Shown here: positions 4,105 through 29,457 of the stretch, in pieces
Layout: every line of letters begins with the position of its first letter
Position numbering within the stretch: position 1 is the stretch's first letter
Source: Bacteroidales bacterium
GTDB taxonomy: Bacteria > Bacteroidota > Bacteroidia > Bacteroidales > Tenuifilaceae
NCBI GenBank assembly: GCA_017524185.1
Contig: JAFWUG010000071.1
Coordinates: forward strand, 3,445 to 67,444
DNA: 64,000 nucleotides
Direction: 5' to 3'
The notes under the pieces: model-generated
Database searches by the model: none
What the model was told of the DNA's origin: nothing
What the model saw: the letters and a program-made list of their open reading frames with translations, nothing else
Made by a program: the position numbers and the translations under genes

Positions 4105-5538
4105 CTACATATCTACAAGTGCTTCTTTGGCCATGTCGTTGAGCTTTGATGCGTCGAAAGGTTTTACAACTGATGGTTCGGTGTCGAAATCAAGCAAAAA
4201 CTGCATGTACAACGGGAGCGTAAGCAAAGAGCCGCAGCGGCCAACATTGTAGTCGCCAAACTTGATGATTTGCTGCACTTGGTATTTATCGGGGTGTTTG
4301 AGTACGGTTGATGCGCTCTTGGACTGGTTGCCCTTGGCCTTCACCTCAATGGGCACGCACTCGCCATGCAATCGTGCCAAAAAATCGAGCTCGAGTCCCG
4401 AATCTTTTTGGAAATAGTAGAGCGGTTGCCCCTTTTTATGAAGCGTGTCGGCCATCAGGTTTTCGAAGATGGCGCCCTTGAATCCACCCAAACGCCCCCG
4501 TAGTATGTCGGCGCGAGTGCCTGCGCCAAGCATCTCCACCAGCAAGCCTATGTCGGCCAAATAGACCTTGAATATGTTGTGGCGGGCGTTGCCCTCCATG
4601 GGAAGCCCAGTGATGTCGGTGTTGTAGCATCGGCATATAAGGCCAGCATCCTCGAGCCACTGAAGCGAGCCAGTGTAGGTTTCGCCCCTTCCGCCAGGCT
4701 TTACCTTGGTGTATTGAAACTTCTTGTTTTCCTTTGCAAGCTGCTTAGGCACAGAACCAAAGCACTCCCTGATGTGCGGTTTGTCCTTGTCAGGGGCGTA
4801 CTTCGCCATGTCGTCGCGATACTCCTTTAGTATGGAACGATACTCCTTGCTTACATCGTTCACGTTGTTGGTGCGGAGGAACGCATTGATTGGCGCGGGC
4901 AAACCGCCTATGGCTACGTAGAGATTCAAGTAGTCGCGCATGGCCACATGAATGCCTGCGGGTACGGGCTTTTCGGCTCGATAGTGATGCCGCAAAGTAT
5001 CTATAACATCAGTGTTCACGCCGTTAGCCCACAGAAACTCCTCAAAATCAAGCGGATACATTTCAATAATTTCTTCGCCCCCAACAGGCACGGAGTCGAT
5101 ACCCGTAGCCCACTGCATATCCATATTACGGCGTTTTTTGCGAAGTTCGTCGCCATAGCCTCTAACGCCAAGCAACGAGCCAGTTGCAATTACATCGAAA
5201 CGCCCATCCTCGTTGAAAAACTTGAGCGATGTACGCGCCTCGGGGCATTCCTGTATCTCGTCGAAAATGATACAGGTTTTATACGGAACAAACTTACTAC
5301 CAGCCACTTGTGCCGATAGGTTAAGCACTATGTTGTCAACCTCCTTGGAGTCGAGAAAAGCCTCAACAAGCTTGGGTTCTTTGATGAAGTTTAGATAAAC
5401 GACATGACTATAGTTTGCCTCGGCAAAATGCTGCGCAATGTAGGTTTTCCCACACTGCCGAATACCCATTATCAAAAGGGGCTTATGATTCGGAGTGTTT
5501 TTCCACTCCAAAAGTGATGCTTCAATTTTACGCCTCAT
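4105..5538 (-). CDS. AAA+ ATPase of the AAA_14/DUF4143 family (COG1373-like), paralog 1
   Basis: Walker A is GIRQCGKTY and Walker B is IIFDEIQ. It is collinear with the paralog at 27676-29046. I placed the start at the internal ATG 5538 (MRRKIEASLLEWKN), which aligns with the paralog N-terminus. The longest ORF extends to 5640, into the repeat array. Confidence 0.8.
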   Translation of the reverse strand: MRRKIEASLLEWKNTPNHKPLLIMGIRQCGKTYIAQHFAEANYSHVVYLNFIKEPKLVEAFLDSKEVDNIVLNLSAQVAGSKFVPYKTCIIFDEIQECPEARTSLKFFNEDGRFDVIATGSLLGVRGYGDELRKKRRNMDMQWATGIDSVPVGGEEIIEMYPLDFEEFLWANGVNTDVIDTLRHHYRAEKPVPAGIHVAMRDYLNLYVAIGGLPAPINAFLRTNNVNDVSKEYRSILKEYRDDMAKYAPDKDKPHIRECFGSVPKQLAKENKKFQYTKVKPGGRGETYTGSLQWLEDAGLICRCYNTDITGLPMEGNARHNIFKVYLADIGLLVEMLGAGTRADILRGRLGGFKGAIFENLMADTLHKKGQPLYYFQKDSGLELDFLARLHGECVPIEVKAKGNQSKSASTVLKHPDKYQVQQIIKFGDYNVGRCGSLLTLPLYMQFLLDFDTEPSVVKPFDASKLNDMAKEALVDM

Positions 5539-5564
5539 AGCGTCTGCTTTGCTGTTTAAAAACG

Positions 5565-5572
5565 CAAATGTA
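5565..5572 (-). promoter_or_regulatory. -7 box TACATTTG for ATPase paralog 1
   Basis: TAnnTTTG on the minus strand, about 27 nt upstream of ATG 5538. Confidence 0.45.
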
Positions 5573-5607
5573 TGATTTTCGGGTATATAAAACAAATATT
5601 GTTGCAA

Positions 5608-5793
5608 TTTTTCCAACGACTTTTGATGCAACCAACGCATTTTTTCTAACGACTTATGATGCTATCAACGTAATTTTTATAATGACTTATGATACTATCA
5701 ACACATTTTTTACAATGACTTTTAATGCAACCAACGCATTTTTTCTACCGACTTTTGATGCAACGAACGCATTTTTTCCAACGACTTTTGACA
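5608..5793. repeat. 33-bp tandem array, 5.6 units (consensus TTTTTCYAACGACTTTTGATGCAACCAACGCAT)
   Basis: The GACTT anchor falls at 5618, 5651, 5684, 5717, 5750 and 5783, which are exact 33-bp steps. The last unit is truncated. Confidence 0.95.
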
Positions 5794-27675: not shown

Positions 27676-29046
27676 CTACCGCCAACTTTGCTTCATGCTG
27701 CCCAGCGCGTAGAGCGGGTATACATCAATGTGTCGGATAGGGCTGGAGTCGTCAGGGGCGGGCTGGGAATCGGTGTGGTCGTAGGACGCAAAATTTTCCA
27801 ACGACGTGCGAACCGCCGCGTGGAGATGCTTCGTCCGCATGAACAGGTACATGCTTTGCATGGCCCCCTGTGTGCTGGCCTTCACCTCGATGGGGAGGAT
27901 AACGCCTTTGCGCACCTCGAGGTAGTCTACCTCGGCATTGGCGTTCTTGCTGTGCCGATACCAATAGTACATCTCGGAGCGCTGAAAGCAGTCGCTGCTC
28001 TTCATCAACTCAAGACCGGCAAAAATCTCGGCCATAGCTCCCTTGTTCACCAGCTCTAGGTCCGTGGCCAACAAAACCTCGGTGCTGGGAATACTTTGCC
28101 AGGAGAGCAAAAGCCCCGTGTCGAGGAATAGGTACTTAACCCCACGGTCGCTCACCTGAGCACCAAGCGGCAAGCCATCGGCGAATGTGTGTTCAACCGG
28201 CACGATTAGTCCGGCCTGCGTGAGTTTGCGCAACGCCCGCTTCACCACAGCGCTCCGGATTTCGTCGTCGGCCTGATTGTAAACAAACTTGGTTCCGCCC
28301 TGGAGCGCAACGGCCCGCAGCACCTTGCGAAGCAGCTCGGGCGACATGCGCTCCTGGTATTTACCAAAATCGTCGAGGTAGGTTTCCATGATGTCGCTGT
28401 GCACGCGGGCGCAGGCCAGGTAATCGTGGGTTTCGACCCACGCCGACACGGCCTCGGGCATACCACCAACCAGCATAAAGCTGCGCACCTGCTCAATCAT
28501 CATCTGGTGCAGCACATCGTCGAGCGGCTGCTGTGGACTGGCACTGCGAATGGCATCGAGCTGCATATCAAGCCCTTGCGCTTTCAGAAACTCGTCGAAC
28601 GAGAACGGATACATATAGAGTGAACGGATGCGCCCCACCGCAAACGACGGGATTTCGGACAGGGCGAACTCCAGCAACGAGCCCGCCGCTACAACATGCA
28701 GCTCGGGGTAGTCCTCCTTGAAGTAGCGAAGCGACATGATGGCGGGGAGGCAACTCTGGATTTCGTCGATAAAGAGCAACGTTTTGCCTGGGATAATAGG
28801 GATGCCTACAGCAGAGCTGATTTTGCTGCACGTTTTCTTGACATCAATATCGGTAGTAAAAAAAGCCTGAAGACTCGCCTGCTTTTCGAGATTGATTTCA
28901 ACATAGTGCTTGAACGTTTTGCCCAGTTTGCGCACCGCCGACGATTTTCCCACCTGCCTAGCACCACGAATAAGGAGCGGTTTGTGATGGGGTGCGTCTC
29001 GCCACTCAAGGAGTTGCTCATCTACTCTTCTATTAAAATAGGCCAT
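27676..29046 (-). CDS. AAA+ ATPase of the AAA_14/DUF4143 family, paralog 2
   Basis: 456 aa. Walker A is GARQVGKSS and Walker B is LLFIDEIQ. Architecture matches 4105-5538. Confidence 0.85.
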   Translation of the reverse strand: MAYFNRRVDEQLLEWRDAPHHKPLLIRGARQVGKSSAVRKLGKTFKHYVEINLEKQASLQAFFTTDIDVKKTCSKISSAVGIPIIPGKTLLFIDEIQSCLPAIMSLRYFKEDYPELHVVAAGSLLEFALSEIPSFAVGRIRSLYMYPFSFDEFLKAQGLDMQLDAIRSASPQQPLDDVLHQMMIEQVRSFMLVGGMPEAVSAWVETHDYLACARVHSDIMETYLDDFGKYQERMSPELLRKVLRAVALQGGTKFVYNQADDEIRSAVVKRALRKLTQAGLIVPVEHTFADGLPLGAQVSDRGVKYLFLDTGLLLSWQSIPSTEVLLATDLELVNKGAMAEIFAGLELMKSSDCFQRSEMYYWYRHSKNANAEVDYLEVRKGVILPIEVKASTQGAMQSMYLFMRTKHLHAAVRTSLENFASYDHTDSQPAPDDSSPIRHIDVYPLYALGSMKQSWR

Positions 29047-29067: not shown

Positions 29068-29075
29068 CAAAGGTA
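29068..29075 (-). promoter_or_regulatory. -7 box TACCTTTG for ATPase paralog 2
   Basis: TAnnTTTG on the minus strand, 22-29 nt upstream of ATG 29046. Confidence 0.45.
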
Positions 29076-29087
29076 GGATTTTTTGCA

Positions 29088-29306
29088 CAAATCCAACCCA
29101 AAAATCGGCAATAAAATGACAAAATACAACCCAAAAAACGACAATATCGTGCTAAAATCCAACCCAAAATTTCGCAACATCGTGCTAAAATCCAACCCAA
29201 AAATCGACATTGTTATGCTAAATTCCAATCCAAAAATCGACAACATCACGCCATAATCCAACCCAAAAACCGACAACATTGTGCTAAAATCCAACCCAAA
29301 ACTAAC
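29088..29306. repeat. 33-bp tandem array, 6.6 units (consensus AAAATCCAACCCAAAAATCGACAACATCGTGCT)
   Basis: The (T/A)CCAA anchor falls at 29093, 29126, 29159, 29192, 29225, 29258 and 29291, which are exact 33-bp steps. The last unit is truncated. Confidence 0.95.
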
Positions 29307-29349
29307 TCTGATGTACTTTATAGGTGCAAAACGACAAATTGCATGTCGA

Positions 29350-29411
29350 GTGTAAAGTTTGTGTAAAGCAAAGTGTAAAATCGCCTTTACAACTTTACAC
29401 TTTTTTTACAC
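29350..29411. promoter_or_regulatory. Candidate enhancer (UAS) block: three GTGTAAAG-type repeats facing three CTTTACAC-type repeats
   Basis: GTGTAAAG occurs at 29350 and 29361, and GTGTAAAA at 29373. CTTTACA occurs at 29385, CTTTACAC at 29393 and TTTTACAC at 29404. The dyad centre is near 29381. The block lies 47-108 nt upstream of the -24 element. Confidence 0.45.
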
Positions 29412-29457
29412 TTTATGTAAGACATAAACAACTATAACATAAGTACTTAAATAGTTT

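What the first reader, a model, noticed from the sequence alone, without database searches (positions are those of the whole stretch)
29088..29306. Second 33-bp array upstream of DUF4143 ATPase paralog 2 shares a CCAAC-N11-CAAC skeleton with the first
What the sequence shows:
- There are seven units in exact 33-bp register, with anchors at 29093, 29126, 29159, 29192, 29225, 29258 and 29291.
- The consensus is AAAATCCAACCCAAAAATCGACAACATCGTGCT, and again the gene-distal unit is truncated.
- The array begins 12 nt upstream of the TACCTTTG -7 box of the ATPase (ATG 29046).

Comparison with array 1, read on the same strand relative to the gene:
- The period is identical and the copy number is similar.
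- CCAAC falls at unit positions 6-10 and CAAC at positions 22-25 in both arrays.
- The remaining positions differ.
- The T-tracts of array 1 are replaced by A-tracts at the same unit positions.

Two independent paralogs with the same repeat architecture argues for a functional gene-plus-array module rather than random microsatellite growth. The sequence divergence suggests cognate specificity per paralog.
Basis: partly seen in the sequence, partly recalled or inferred. Interest (0 to 1): 0.75.

Follow-up and report, generated by a model that had tools for sequence, protein, structure and literature searches.

The report
Phased repeat array read by its ATPase
A tandem array of 33-bp repeats sits against the promoter of a very common but uncharacterised candidate phage-defence ATPase-nuclease, the same layout recurs next to relatives of this gene in six bacterial phyla, and it co-varies with the protein's predicted DNA-reading helix, so it is most likely the protein's own binding site.

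Summary
Window 29089-29301 holds 6.5-7 units of an exact 33-bp repeat that runs up to the Bacteroidetes -7 promoter box of a DUF4143/AAA_14 ATPase (PADLOC candidate defence gene PDC-S01). A second 33-bp array sits the same way upstream of a paralog that is only 28% identical.

It is not a local microsatellite. In 1.0 Mb of related DNA, 76 of 77 tandem arrays of period 31-34 lie directly upstream of a DUF4143 gene. Arrays with the same 32-33-bp period but unrelated core sequences occur in at least 20 divergent lineages across six phyla.

The predicted protein is an Orc1/Cdc6-like AAA+ module, then a winged helix, then a PD-(D/E)xK domain. In two independent ortholog sets, the protein columns that co-vary most with the repeat core fall in the same 6-residue start of the winged-helix recognition helix. 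Examples are His with TTTTGGA, Arg with TTTTAGC and Lys with TTTTGGG, with at least two independent His-to-Arg switches.

Best explanation: an iteron-like operator and assembly array bound by the gene's own product, probably autoregulatory. Binding itself has not been shown.

I found no report of these arrays in the papers I could search.

The parts
29077..29306 (-). Array 2: seven 33-bp direct repeats. The gene-strand unit is TTTTTGGGTTGGATTTTAGCACGATGTTGTCGA, made of a ~19-bp core (T-tract + GGTTGGA + TTTT + AGC) and a ~14-bp spacer. The proximal unit runs up to the -7 box and the distal unit is truncated.
   Evidence: TRF, register, core hits against shuffles. Strains of the same species carry 8 units instead of 7.
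29068..29075 (-). Putative Bacteroidetes -7 promoter box TACCTTTG (TAnnTTTG) of ATPase paralog 2.
   Evidence: Read from the sequence. A TAnnTTTG-like box was found at most 70 nt (mostly 27-38 nt) upstream of the start codon in 80/81 family-2 and 71/80 family-1 loci, with the repeat core in fixed register to it. The promoter consensus comes from established knowledge. No transcription start site was mapped.
27676..29046 (-). ATPase paralog 2 (456 aa): AAA_14 ATPase, helical lid, winged helix, C-terminal PD-(D/E)xK-like domain. PADLOC PDC-S01.
   Evidence: Pfam, PADLOC E=7e-131, AlphaFold2 pLDDT 89.4, Foldseek top hits PABY2304 and Orc1/Cdc6/ORC.
28216..28257 (-). Codons for residues 264-277: the N-cap and predicted recognition helix of the winged helix. 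Arg264 is the residue that co-varies with the 3 nt after the core T-tract.
   Evidence: Secondary structure of the model. Mutual-information ranking puts position 264 first of ~450 columns and position 266 second or third. Independent His-to-Arg switches.
27880..27933 (-). Codons for residues 372-389 (E372, D374 ... E387-V-K389): the PD-(D/E)xK nuclease motif.
   Evidence: D374, E387 and K389 are invariant and E372 nearly invariant in 58 aligned homologs. DUF4143 is listed as a PD-(D/E)xK family in PMC3424549.
28942..28965 (-). Codons for the Walker A loop (G28-ARQVGK-S35).
   Evidence: G28, G33 and K34 are invariant. D94-E95 (Walker B) are also invariant.
5604..5791 (-). Array 1: 5.7 units of 33 bp. 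The gene-strand unit is GTTGGTTGCATCAAAAGTCGTTGGAAAAAATGC, with core TCGTTGGAAAAA.
   Evidence: TRF, pattern hits. Orthologs carry the same kind of array in the same orientation.
5565..5572 (-). Putative -7 box TACATTTG of paralog 1. It is separated from array 1 by a ~31-nt degenerate unit.
   Evidence: Read from the sequence.
4105..5538 (-). ATPase paralog 1 (477 aa): AAA_14 + DUF4143, PDC-S01, 28% identical to paralog 2.

Best explanation
The 33-bp array is a cis-acting, iteron-like operator and assembly site for the protein encoded immediately downstream. That protein is an Orc1/Cdc6-like AAA+ ATPase with a winged helix (WH) and a C-terminal PD-(D/E)xK nuclease domain (DUF4143 / COG1373 / PADLOC PDC-S01).

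Proposed mechanism:
- Each unit carries a ~19-bp core: TTGGA-type bases flanked by A- or T-tracts.
- I propose that the N-terminal end of the WH recognition helix reads this core.
- The constant 32-33-bp spacing (about three helical turns) places successive protomers on roughly one face of the DNA, so binding is cooperative and probably coupled to ATP-dependent oligomerisation.
- The promoter-proximal unit overlaps the core promoter. In Bacteroidales it lies just upstream of the -7 box, and in sigma70-type hosts over the -35 hexamer.
- Occupancy therefore most likely autoregulates, and probably represses, a potentially toxic nuclease.
- Each paralog has its own co-evolving core, which avoids cross-talk.

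Shown here:
- The array and its register.
- Its near-exclusive association with DUF4143 genes across phyla.
- Conservation of the period despite divergence of the sequence.
- The protein fold prediction.
- Protein-DNA co-variation.

Inferred:
- Physical binding.
- Cooperativity.
- The direction of regulation.
For: 1. Association. 76 of 77 period-31-34 arrays in 1.007 Mb lie directly upstream of a DUF4143 gene. 66/75 and 71/73 orthologs of the two paralogs are positive, against 1% of controls by construction. The two 33-bp arrays in the window are its only two period-33 arrays, and they lie upstream of the two DUF4143 genes I identified; the other large ORFs I scanned against Pfam are unrelated.

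2. Breadth. 32-33-bp arrays occur upstream of DUF4143 genes in Criblamydia, Collinsella, Glaesserella, Agathobacter, Ruminococcus, Vescimonas, Fusobacterium, Acinetobacter and several further Bacteroidales and proviral subfamilies, each with a different core. The ATPase gene is the only constant neighbour.

3. Fixed register to the promoter. TTGGA starts 14, 47 and 80 nt upstream of the -7 box in family 2, and 11-12, 44-45 and 77-78 nt in family 1. In sigma70-type hosts the proximal core reads TTGAAA-17-TATAAT or TTGAAA-17-TAAAAT.

4. Fold. AAA+ module, lid, winged helix, then an alpha/beta domain, with pLDDT 89.4. The best structural matches are PABY2304 and DNA-bound Orc1/Cdc6/ORC. The C-terminal half matches winged-helix repressors and PD-(D/E)xK nucleases only weakly.

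5. Co-variation.
- Family 2: position 264, the N-cap of the WH helix, is the top mutual-information column of ~450. His goes with TTTTGGA in 32/32 cases, Arg with TTTTAGC in 7/7, and Lys with TTTTGGG in 5/5 and with TTTCAGA in 3/3. Positions 266 and 267 also rank high.
- Family 1: the aligned positions 289, 286 and 287 rank 1st, 5th and 8th of 462.
- Two nested, independent His-to-Arg plus GGA-to-AGC switches occur, in L017 at 93% identity and L008 at 82% identity to His/GGA relatives.
- Among pairs 80-97% identical, residue 264 is always the same when the DNA class is the same (415 pairs) and never the same when it differs (33 pairs).

6. Core versus spacer. The 52-bp variants (33 bp plus an extra 19-bp core without spacer) show that the 19-bp core is the unit under selection.

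7. No RNA signal. The fold z-score is +0.93 and there is no Rfam hit.
Against: - No binding, footprint, transcription start site or expression data exist. The -7 and -35 assignments are consensus matches only.
- The DNA classes used for the co-variation test were defined after I had looked at the alignments.
- Phylogenetic non-independence was controlled only by 97% de-replication, identity strata and two nested switches.
- In family 1 the classes largely follow deep clades.
- The WH assignment rests on a predicted model. Structural matches for the isolated C-terminal half are weak, with no Foldseek hit at E<=1e-3.
- A few homologs show no array: Vibrio L168, F. vincentii L166 and the weak homologs L194 and L196.
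- 33 bp is a long spacing for direct AAA+-to-AAA+ contacts, so how cooperativity would work is unclear.
- Repression versus activation cannot be decided from sequence.
Confidence: 0.6

Rival explanations
1. The array is more than a transcriptional operator. It is the DNA scaffold on which the AAA+ nuclease is loaded, parked or activated as part of its (defence) function. Examples would be a self-DNA sink that keeps the nuclease inactive until infection, or a nucleation site for a filament. This partly overlaps the best explanation.
For: - The 32-33-bp geometry is conserved across phyla, which suggests an oligomer constraint.
- The fold resembles Orc1/Cdc6, MuB and TnsC, proteins that assemble on DNA.
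- The ATPase and nuclease motifs are invariant.
- Arrays reach 6-8 units, more than a simple operator needs.
- Copy number differs between strains.
Against: - The strict register to the -7 or -35 element points to a promoter-centred role.
- Most orthologs have only about 3 units.
- There is no evidence of defence activity for PDC-S01 (PMC12988326).
- The window context is housekeeping genes, not a defence island.
Confidence: 0.17
2. The array is a promoter-architecture element that does not depend on the ATPase. It would be either phased A/T-tracts giving intrinsic curvature or UP-like stimulation, or sites for a host transcription factor or RNA polymerase.
For: - The most conserved positions in the unit are the A- or T-tracts, spaced about 11-12 bp apart.
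- The proximal core resembles a -35 hexamer in sigma70-type hosts.
Against: - The arrays are near-exclusive to DUF4143 genes, 76 of 77.
- The same layout occurs in six phyla with different transcription machinery.
- Two paralogs in one genome carry different cores.
- The core co-varies with the ATPase's own WH helix.
Confidence: 0.13
3. The array is a replication-origin iteron or partition site of a small selfish or mobile module, with the ATPase acting as its initiator.
For: - The layout of iterons followed by a gene for a WH protein matches plasmid Rep systems, and the ATPase has an Orc1/Cdc6-like fold.
- The flanks of the module differ between loci, and an IS3-family element abuts it in 12 of 175 loci.
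Against: - The genes are single chromosomal genes between housekeeping genes, with no other mobile-element genes.
- The flanks are identical in strains of the same species.
- The array is locked to the gene's own promoter.
- There are no Rep or Cdc6 Pfam hits.
Confidence: 0.05
4. The array is a neutral minisatellite produced by slippage or unequal crossing-over, with no function.
For: - Copy number is polymorphic, 7 against 8 units.
- One array has 100% identical units (L003).
- Spacers are similar within an array but not between species.
Against: - Presence, period, orientation and register to the promoter are conserved across at least 20 divergent lineages.
- The association with DUF4143 genes is near-exclusive.
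- The core co-varies with the protein.
Confidence: 0.03

Closest known systems
Plasmid iterons and their Rep initiators (e.g. pPS10 RepA, R6K pi, P1 RepA); comparison from established knowledge
   Same: - Three to seven tandem direct repeats at a fixed spacing sit next to the gene for the winged-helix protein that binds them.
- The protein autoregulates.
- Repeat sequence and protein specificity co-evolve, so related systems do not cross-react.
   Different: - Iterons are 17-22 bp (two helical turns) and define a replication origin.
- Rep proteins lack an AAA+ module and a nuclease.
- Here the period is 32-33 bp, the protein is AAA+ plus PD-(D/E)xK, the locus is a single chromosomal gene, and the array is locked to the promoter.
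- There is no Rep Pfam hit.
Archaeal Orc1/Cdc6 and origin recognition boxes (ORB) next to the orc1/cdc6 gene
   Same: - Same predicted architecture of AAA+ module, lid and winged helix. Foldseek hits include 2qby and ORC-DNA complexes.
- Repeated recognition elements lie adjacent to the protein's own gene.
   Different: - ORBs flank an unwinding element in inverted orientation and serve replication.
- There is no PD-(D/E)xK domain.
- Similarity is at fold level only (TM 0.23-0.33), with no sequence-family membership.
PADLOC PDC-S01 / Pfam DUF4143 (COG1373) candidate defence ATPase-nucleases
   Same: Both window genes are members by HMM, with E=7e-131 and E=8e-146.
   Different: - The family is described only as an ATPase fused to a PD-(D/E)xK domain, very abundant and experimentally unvalidated (PMC12988326, PMC13356809, PMC3424549).
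- No upstream repeat array, DNA-binding specificity or autoregulation is mentioned in any paper I could find.
DnaA boxes in the dnaA promoter; phage repressor-operator immunity groups (from established knowledge)
   Same: - An AAA+ or HTH protein binds multiple sites over its own promoter.
- Operator and recognition-helix specificity diverge together.
   Different: - The site spacing is irregular rather than a strict tandem 33-bp array.
- The protein families are different.
CRISPR arrays
   Same: Superficially similar: a period of about 30 bp and assembly breaks at the array.
   Different: - There are no unique spacers; the whole 33 bp repeats.
- There is no palindromic repeat and no RNA structure (z=+0.93).
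- There are no cas genes.
- This is not a CRISPR array.

Membership tests
DUF4143 / PDC-S01 ATPase-nuclease (the gene) | AAA_14 (PF13173) N-terminal domain plus DUF4143 (PF13635) C-terminal domain, above Pfam gathering scores. | tested here: met
   Paralog 2 scores 84.6 and 82.5 bits. Paralog 1 scores 80.6 and 107 bits. The cut-offs are 27 and 28.1.
DUF4143 / PDC-S01 ATPase-nuclease (the gene) | Match to the PADLOC PDC-S01 models. | tested here: met
   E=7.3e-131 and E=8.3e-146 over nearly the full length.
DUF4143 / PDC-S01 ATPase-nuclease (the gene) | Intact Walker A/B and PD-(D/E)xK catalytic residues. | tested here: met
   G33, K34, D94, E95, D374, E387 and K389 are invariant in 58 homologs.
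DUF4143 / PDC-S01 ATPase-nuclease (the gene) | Anti-phage activity or a defence-island context. | tested here: not met
   Neighbours in the window are rplS, peptidase C69, a TolC/HlyD/MacB efflux operon, mnmE and dnaB. Defence activity cannot be tested here and is unvalidated in the literature.
Iteron-like operator array bound by the adjacent gene product | At least 3 tandem direct repeats at a constant spacing adjacent to the gene. | tested here: met
Iteron-like operator array bound by the adjacent gene product | The adjacent gene encodes a sequence-specific DNA-binding (winged-helix) domain. | tested here: inconclusive
   The winged helix is predicted by AlphaFold2. The fold matches Orc1/Cdc6 and, weakly, winged-helix repressors. 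No experimental structure or sequence-level PDB relative exists.
Iteron-like operator array bound by the adjacent gene product | Protein specificity and repeat sequence co-evolve. | tested here: met
   The top mutual-information columns fall in the WH helix in two families, and there are independent nested switches. This is correlational.
Iteron-like operator array bound by the adjacent gene product | Physical binding of the protein to the repeats. | not testable with these tools
   Needs EMSA, footprinting or ChIP.
Replication-origin iterons / Rep or Orc1-Cdc6 initiator | Membership of a Rep or Cdc6 protein family, and origin function. | tested here: not met
   There are no Rep or Cdc6 Pfam or NCBIfam hits. 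The similarity is at fold level only. Origin function was not tested.
CRISPR array | Conserved repeats alternating with unique spacers, and cas genes nearby. | tested here: not met
   The whole 33-bp unit repeats. No cas genes are among the neighbours. There is no Rfam hit.
Known structured RNA | An Rfam match or a thermodynamic structure signal. | tested here: not met
   Rfam finds only two tRNAs elsewhere in the window. The array fold z-score is +0.93.

The most novel reading that the evidence does not exclude
The 32-33-bp array is an integral second component of the PDC-S01 system. It would be a genomic docking array on which an Orc1/Cdc6-like AAA+ nuclease oligomerises in a sequence-specific way that diversifies rapidly. 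The array would both set expression and hold or license the nuclease, acting as a self-DNA sink or sensor platform. The diverging WH-core pairs would then form 'immunity groups' comparable to phage repressor-operator pairs. If so, one of the most abundant candidate defence systems in prokaryotes would be a protein-plus-DNA-array system rather than a single-gene system.
Probability: 0.17. Interest if true: 0.85.

Novelty: new variant of a known kind. Interest (0 to 1): 0.68.

Why it matters
DUF4143/PDC-S01 is reported as the fourth most common candidate defence system in prokaryotes and as the most frequent single locus in rumen genomes. It has no known mechanism and no experimental validation (PMC12988326, PMC13356809).

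This work gives the family three concrete, testable handles:
- A conserved cis-element with a fixed geometry.
- A predicted DNA-reading residue, with a simple candidate recognition code: His with GGA, Arg with AGC, Lys with GGG.
- A likely autoregulatory circuit.

It also has practical consequences:
- It may explain why short-read assemblies often break just upstream of these genes.
- It suggests that annotation pipelines should treat the array as part of the locus.
- It offers orthogonal protein-operator pairs that could be useful as parts for Bacteroides genetics.

Tried and rejected
- Array 1 inverted relative to its gene. Its plus-strand reading (CCAACGACTTTTG) resembles the Segatella family-2 core. 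I rejected this because all family-1 orthologs carry the A-tract form in the same orientation as the window, and TTGGA keeps the same register to the -7 box in both families.
- Structured RNA or CRISPR-like element. Rejected: Rfam finds only tRNAs, the fold z-score is +0.93, and there are no spacers.
- Tn7-like or Mu-like transposon end next to the array, with TGTCTACTTT repeats ending in GGTACA. This resolved to the end of an IS3-family insertion sequence present in only 12 of 175 loci. It is not part of the module.
- Canonical -33 TTTG element inside the unit. The spacing to the -7 box does not fit: 23 or 12 nt instead of 19-21 nt in family 2, and no TTTG in family 1.
- Sequence-level relatives in the PDB. 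None found.
- Foldseek on the isolated C-terminal half gave only weak hits.
- Literature searches for DUF4143, COG1373, PDC-S01, AAA_14 plus 'direct repeats', and 33-bp repeats in Bacteroides found no description of the arrays.
- NCBIfam gave no meaningful family name.
- I did not use the sigma70 promoter scanner, because Bacteroidetes promoters are outside its model.
Full report
**1. The observation**

Tandem Repeats Finder reports an array at window 29089-29301 with period 33, 6.5 copies, 78% matches and score 242. It reports a second array at 5604-5791 with period 33 and 5.7 copies. These are the only two period-33 arrays in the 64-kb window.

Printing the sequence in 33-nt register puts CCAAC exactly at 29093, 29126, 29159, 29192, 29225, 29258 and 29291. 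The gene-distal unit is truncated.

The core TCCAACCCAAAAA, allowing up to 2 mismatches, occurs 7 times in register in the array. The window total is 9 against 2.1 expected, and 0 of 100 shuffles reach 9. The array-1 core gives 5 hits against 0.23 expected.

Both arrays lie directly upstream of minus-strand genes that carry AAA_14 plus DUF4143 domains:
- Paralog 2 is 27676-29046, 456 aa.
- Paralog 1 is 4105-5538, 477 aa.
- The two proteins are only 28% identical.

TACCTTTG at 29068-29075 on the minus strand matches the Bacteroidetes -7 consensus TAnnTTTG (established knowledge). The proximal repeat unit runs right up to it.

**2. The gene**

Both proteins match the PADLOC candidate defence family PDC-S01, with E=7e-131 and E=8e-146. 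NCBIfam gives no name and no PDB entry is related by sequence.

An AlphaFold2 model built on 58 homologs has mean pLDDT 89.4 and pTM 0.89. It shows four parts:
- An AAA+ core.
- A helical lid.
- A winged helix (WH), with helix 265-277 followed by a beta-hairpin.
- A C-terminal alpha/beta domain.

Foldseek places the model nearest the Pyrococcus Walker ATPase PABY2304 (2qen, E=2e-9). Next come Orc1/Cdc6 and ORC subunits bound to origin DNA, then RuvB, MuB, TnsC and NLRs.

Modelled alone, the C-terminal half (pLDDT 74.5) gives only weak matches. These are dominated by winged-helix repressors (SmtB, MarR-family-DNA complexes, PerR, RTP-DNA) and PD-(D/E)xK nucleases (McrC, Bax1).

Walker A (G33, K34), Walker B (D94, E95) and the D374...E387-x-K389 nuclease motif are invariant.

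The literature I could search says the following:
- DUF4143/COG1373 is a PD-(D/E)xK family of unknown function (PMC3424549).
- It is the most frequent single locus in rumen genomes (PMC13356809).

**3. Is the gene-plus-array association general?**

I fetched 80 genomic loci encoding orthologs of paralog 2, at 56-72% identity. They come from Segatella, Prevotella, Leyella, Muribaculaceae, Paludibacteraceae and others. I also fetched 80 metagenomic loci encoding orthologs of paralog 1, at 57-77% identity.

Nearly all carry 2.5-7 direct repeats on the gene strand, ending at a TAnnTTTG box that lies mostly 27-38 nt before the start codon.

The best autocorrelation lag of the upstream 140 nt shows the periodicity:

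| Family | Lag | Loci |
|---|---|---|
| 2 | 33 | 39 of 75 |
| 2 | 50-52 | 31 of 75 |
| 2 | 66-67 | 5 of 75 |
| 1 | 32-34 | 62 of 72 |
| 1 | 63-66 | 9 of 72 |

With a threshold at the 99th percentile of 636 control windows from the same loci, 66/75 family-2 and 71/73 family-1 loci are positive. Most of the family-2 'negatives' are the variants that carry an extra 19-bp core (51-52-bp lag).

Running TRF over all 1.007 Mb of fetched DNA finds 77 arrays of period 31-34:
- 73 are upstream of the query gene.
- 3 more are upstream of another DUF4143 gene. These are L079 and L124, where two paralogs in tandem each have their own array, and L165.
- Only one two-copy repeat is unrelated to a DUF4143 gene.

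**4. Breadth beyond Bacteroidales**

A tblastn search of the plasmid collection found 59 records, of which I fetched 16 diverse ones. Phased 32-33-bp repeats directly upstream of the DUF4143 gene appear in these hosts:

| Host | Phylum | Period x copies |
|---|---|---|
| Criblamydia | Chlamydiota | 32 x 3 |
| Collinsella | Actinomycetota | 33 x 3 |
| Glaesserella | Gammaproteobacteria | 33 x 3 |
| Agathobacter | Bacillota | 33 x 4 |
| Ruminococcus albus | Bacillota | 32 x 3 |
| Vescimonas | Bacillota | x 2 |
| Fusobacterium animalis | Fusobacteriota | 32 x 2 |
| Acinetobacter | Gammaproteobacteria | x 2 |

They also appear in further Bacteroidales plasmid genes. Additional subfamilies in proviral contigs show the same thing.

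The core sequences are unrelated between lineages, yet the period stays at 32-33 bp. I saw no array for a Vibrio gene, a F. vincentii gene and two very weak homologs.

In sigma70-type hosts the proximal core looks like a -35 hexamer at proper spacing: TTGAAA-17-TATAAT in Vescimonas and TTGAAA-17-TAAAAT in Glaesserella. In Bacteroidales the proximal core sits 6-14 nt upstream of the -7 box. In both cases it overlaps the core promoter.

**5. Anatomy of the unit**

Anchoring on the -7 box gives these family logos:
- Family 2: TTTTTTGcCctgacTTTTgGAtAaat...TATCTTTG.
- Family 1: aAtTCG.TggAAAAAgTGTATtTTTG.

The information peaks are on the A- or T-tracts and on the TTGG(A) element.

TTGGA starts 14, 47 and 80 nt upstream of the -7 box in family 2, and 11-12, 44-45 and 77-78 nt upstream in family 1. 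The register to the promoter is therefore shared by two families that are only 28% identical.

Variants with a 52-bp period are 33 bp plus an extra 19-bp core with no spacer. This marks the ~19-bp core as the selected unit and the ~14-bp remainder as spacer.

The first element, CCAAC (GTTGG/TTGGA on the gene strand), is conserved, as is the A-tract versus T-tract difference.

**6. Who reads the array?**

The ATPase gene is the only constant neighbour across phyla, and two paralogs in one genome have different cores. The simplest reader is therefore the protein itself. I tested this by co-variation.

For 59 non-redundant family-2 orthologs I classed arrays by the 3 nt that follow the core T-tract:

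| Residue at position 264 | Core | Cases |
|---|---|---|
| His | TTTTGGA | 32 of 32 |
| Arg | TTTTAGC | 7 of 7 |
| Lys | TTTTGGG | 5 of 5 |
| Lys | TTTCAGA | 3 of 3 |

Position 264, the N-cap of the predicted WH recognition helix, has the highest mutual information of ~450 alignment columns (1.33 of 2.03 bits). Position 266 ranks third by raw mutual information and second when normalised; position 267 ranks ninth when normalised.

In the independent family-1 set (44 sequences), the aligned positions 289, 286 and 287 rank 1st, 5th (1st when normalised) and 8th of 462 columns.

Two nested switches argue against pure phylogenetic hitch-hiking:
- L017 is 93% identical to Segatella copri orthologs but has His-to-Arg together with GACTTTTGGAT-to-GACTTTTAGCA.
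- L008 is 82% identical to a Prevotella clade and shows the same pair of changes.

Among pairs 80-97% identical, residue 264 is identical in all 415 same-class pairs and in none of the 33 different-class pairs.

Two caveats apply. I chose the class definition after inspecting the data. No formal phylogenetic correction was made.

**7. Dynamics**

Strains of the same species, with a 99% identical protein and identical flanks, carry 8 units where the window has 7. One ortholog has 5.7 perfectly identical units (L003). Several contigs end inside the array (L179, L180, L024, L064).

Units therefore expand and contract by recombination or slippage, while the core stays under constraint.

**8. Mechanism proposed**

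The array is an iteron-like operator and assembly site. WH domains of successive protomers read the cores every ~3 helical turns. ATP-dependent oligomerisation of the Orc1/Cdc6-like module makes occupancy cooperative. Occupancy of the promoter-proximal unit regulates, and probably represses, transcription of a nuclease that is likely harmful in excess. Diverging WH-core pairs insulate paralogs from one another.

The association, geometry, fold prediction and co-variation are shown here. Binding, cooperativity and the sign of regulation are inferred.

The main rivals are these:
- The array also serves the protein's effector function as a docking platform. This is not exclusive of the best explanation.
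- It is an ATPase-independent promoter element, either curved DNA or a host-factor site. The exclusivity to DUF4143 genes, the spread across phyla and the co-variation argue against this.
- It is origin or partition iterons of a mobile module. The housekeeping context and the strict register to the promoter argue against this.
- It is a neutral minisatellite. The comparative data exclude this.

An RNA or CRISPR-like reading is rejected.

**9. Comparison with known systems, and novelty**

Functionally the arrangement works most like plasmid iterons with their Rep proteins, or archaeal Orc1/Cdc6 with ORB elements next to their own gene. It also resembles DnaA boxes in the dnaA promoter.

It is not a member of those families:
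- There is no Rep or Cdc6 sequence-family hit.
- The period is 32-33 bp rather than 17-22 bp.
- The protein carries a PD-(D/E)xK domain.
- The array is tied to a promoter rather than to an origin.

The gene is a bona fide DUF4143/PDC-S01 member. Six literature searches found no description of an associated repeat array or of sequence-specific DNA binding for this family. That library is limited to open-access papers and preprints.

I therefore rate it a new variant of a known kind: a conserved, co-evolving cis-array attached to a very abundant, uncharacterised ATPase-nuclease.

**10. Verdict**

- Confidence that the array is a conserved functional element of DUF4143 loci is about 0.95.
- Confidence that it is bound by its own ATPase and is autoregulatory is about 0.6.
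- Interest is 0.68.

Noticed in passing
window 29340-29425: Between array 2 and the TolC-like gene (29504+) lies a dense cluster of three GTGTAAA(G) motifs followed by three inverted CTTTACA(C) motifs, spaced about 11-12 nt apart. It is conserved in strains L177 and L178. It may be an operator for the TolC/HlyD/MacB efflux operon. AAAGTGTAAA also resembles the core of other DUF4143 subfamilies.
   Followed up: partly
L151 1315-2870; also L006, L015, L082-84, L087, L089, L097, L127, L128, L174: An IS3-family insertion sequence ends 10-30 bp from the distal edge of the array in 12 of 175 loci, from both ATPase families and from a Firmicute plasmid. Its orfB is rve-like. Its end carries 3-4 TGTCTACTTT(G/T)G motifs at 42-bp spacing and terminates in ...GGTACA. 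This may reflect a target preference for the array or for its bound protein.
   Followed up: partly
L079 4343-4426 and 4492-5754; L124 1235-1323 and 1362-2684; L161 1-800: DUF4143 paralogs often sit next to each other, in tandem or divergently. Each has its own 33-bp array with a different core.
   Followed up: partly
L024, L064, L179, L180 and many loci whose contig ends 77-450 bp upstream of the gene: Short-read contigs frequently terminate inside or just beyond the array. These arrays are probably a systematic cause of assembly breaks upstream of DUF4143 genes.
   Followed up: no
L026, L053, L058, L066, L067, L074-L077 and the Prevotella rumen (RUG) MAG loci L018-L045: Many family-2 arrays have a 51-52-bp super-period: 33 bp plus an extra 19-bp core directly abutting the next core. 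These arrays therefore mix 19-bp and 33-bp centre-to-centre spacings. A one-face-of-the-helix model does not obviously explain this.
   Followed up: partly
window 5539-5640: The mechanical ORF of paralog 1 extends into array 1 (ATG at 5640). Ortholog alignment supports the start at 5538 or one codon upstream. A ~31-nt degenerate unit carrying a near -7 box (AATATTTG) separates array 1 from the likely functional -7 box (TACATTTG, 5565-5572).
   Followed up: partly
L172 (Acinetobacter plasmid), upstream of the gene at 795: Here each unit contains an internal palindrome, CACTTTT-N8-AAAAGTG, unlike the asymmetric cores elsewhere. This hints that some subfamilies bind as dimers.
   Followed up: no
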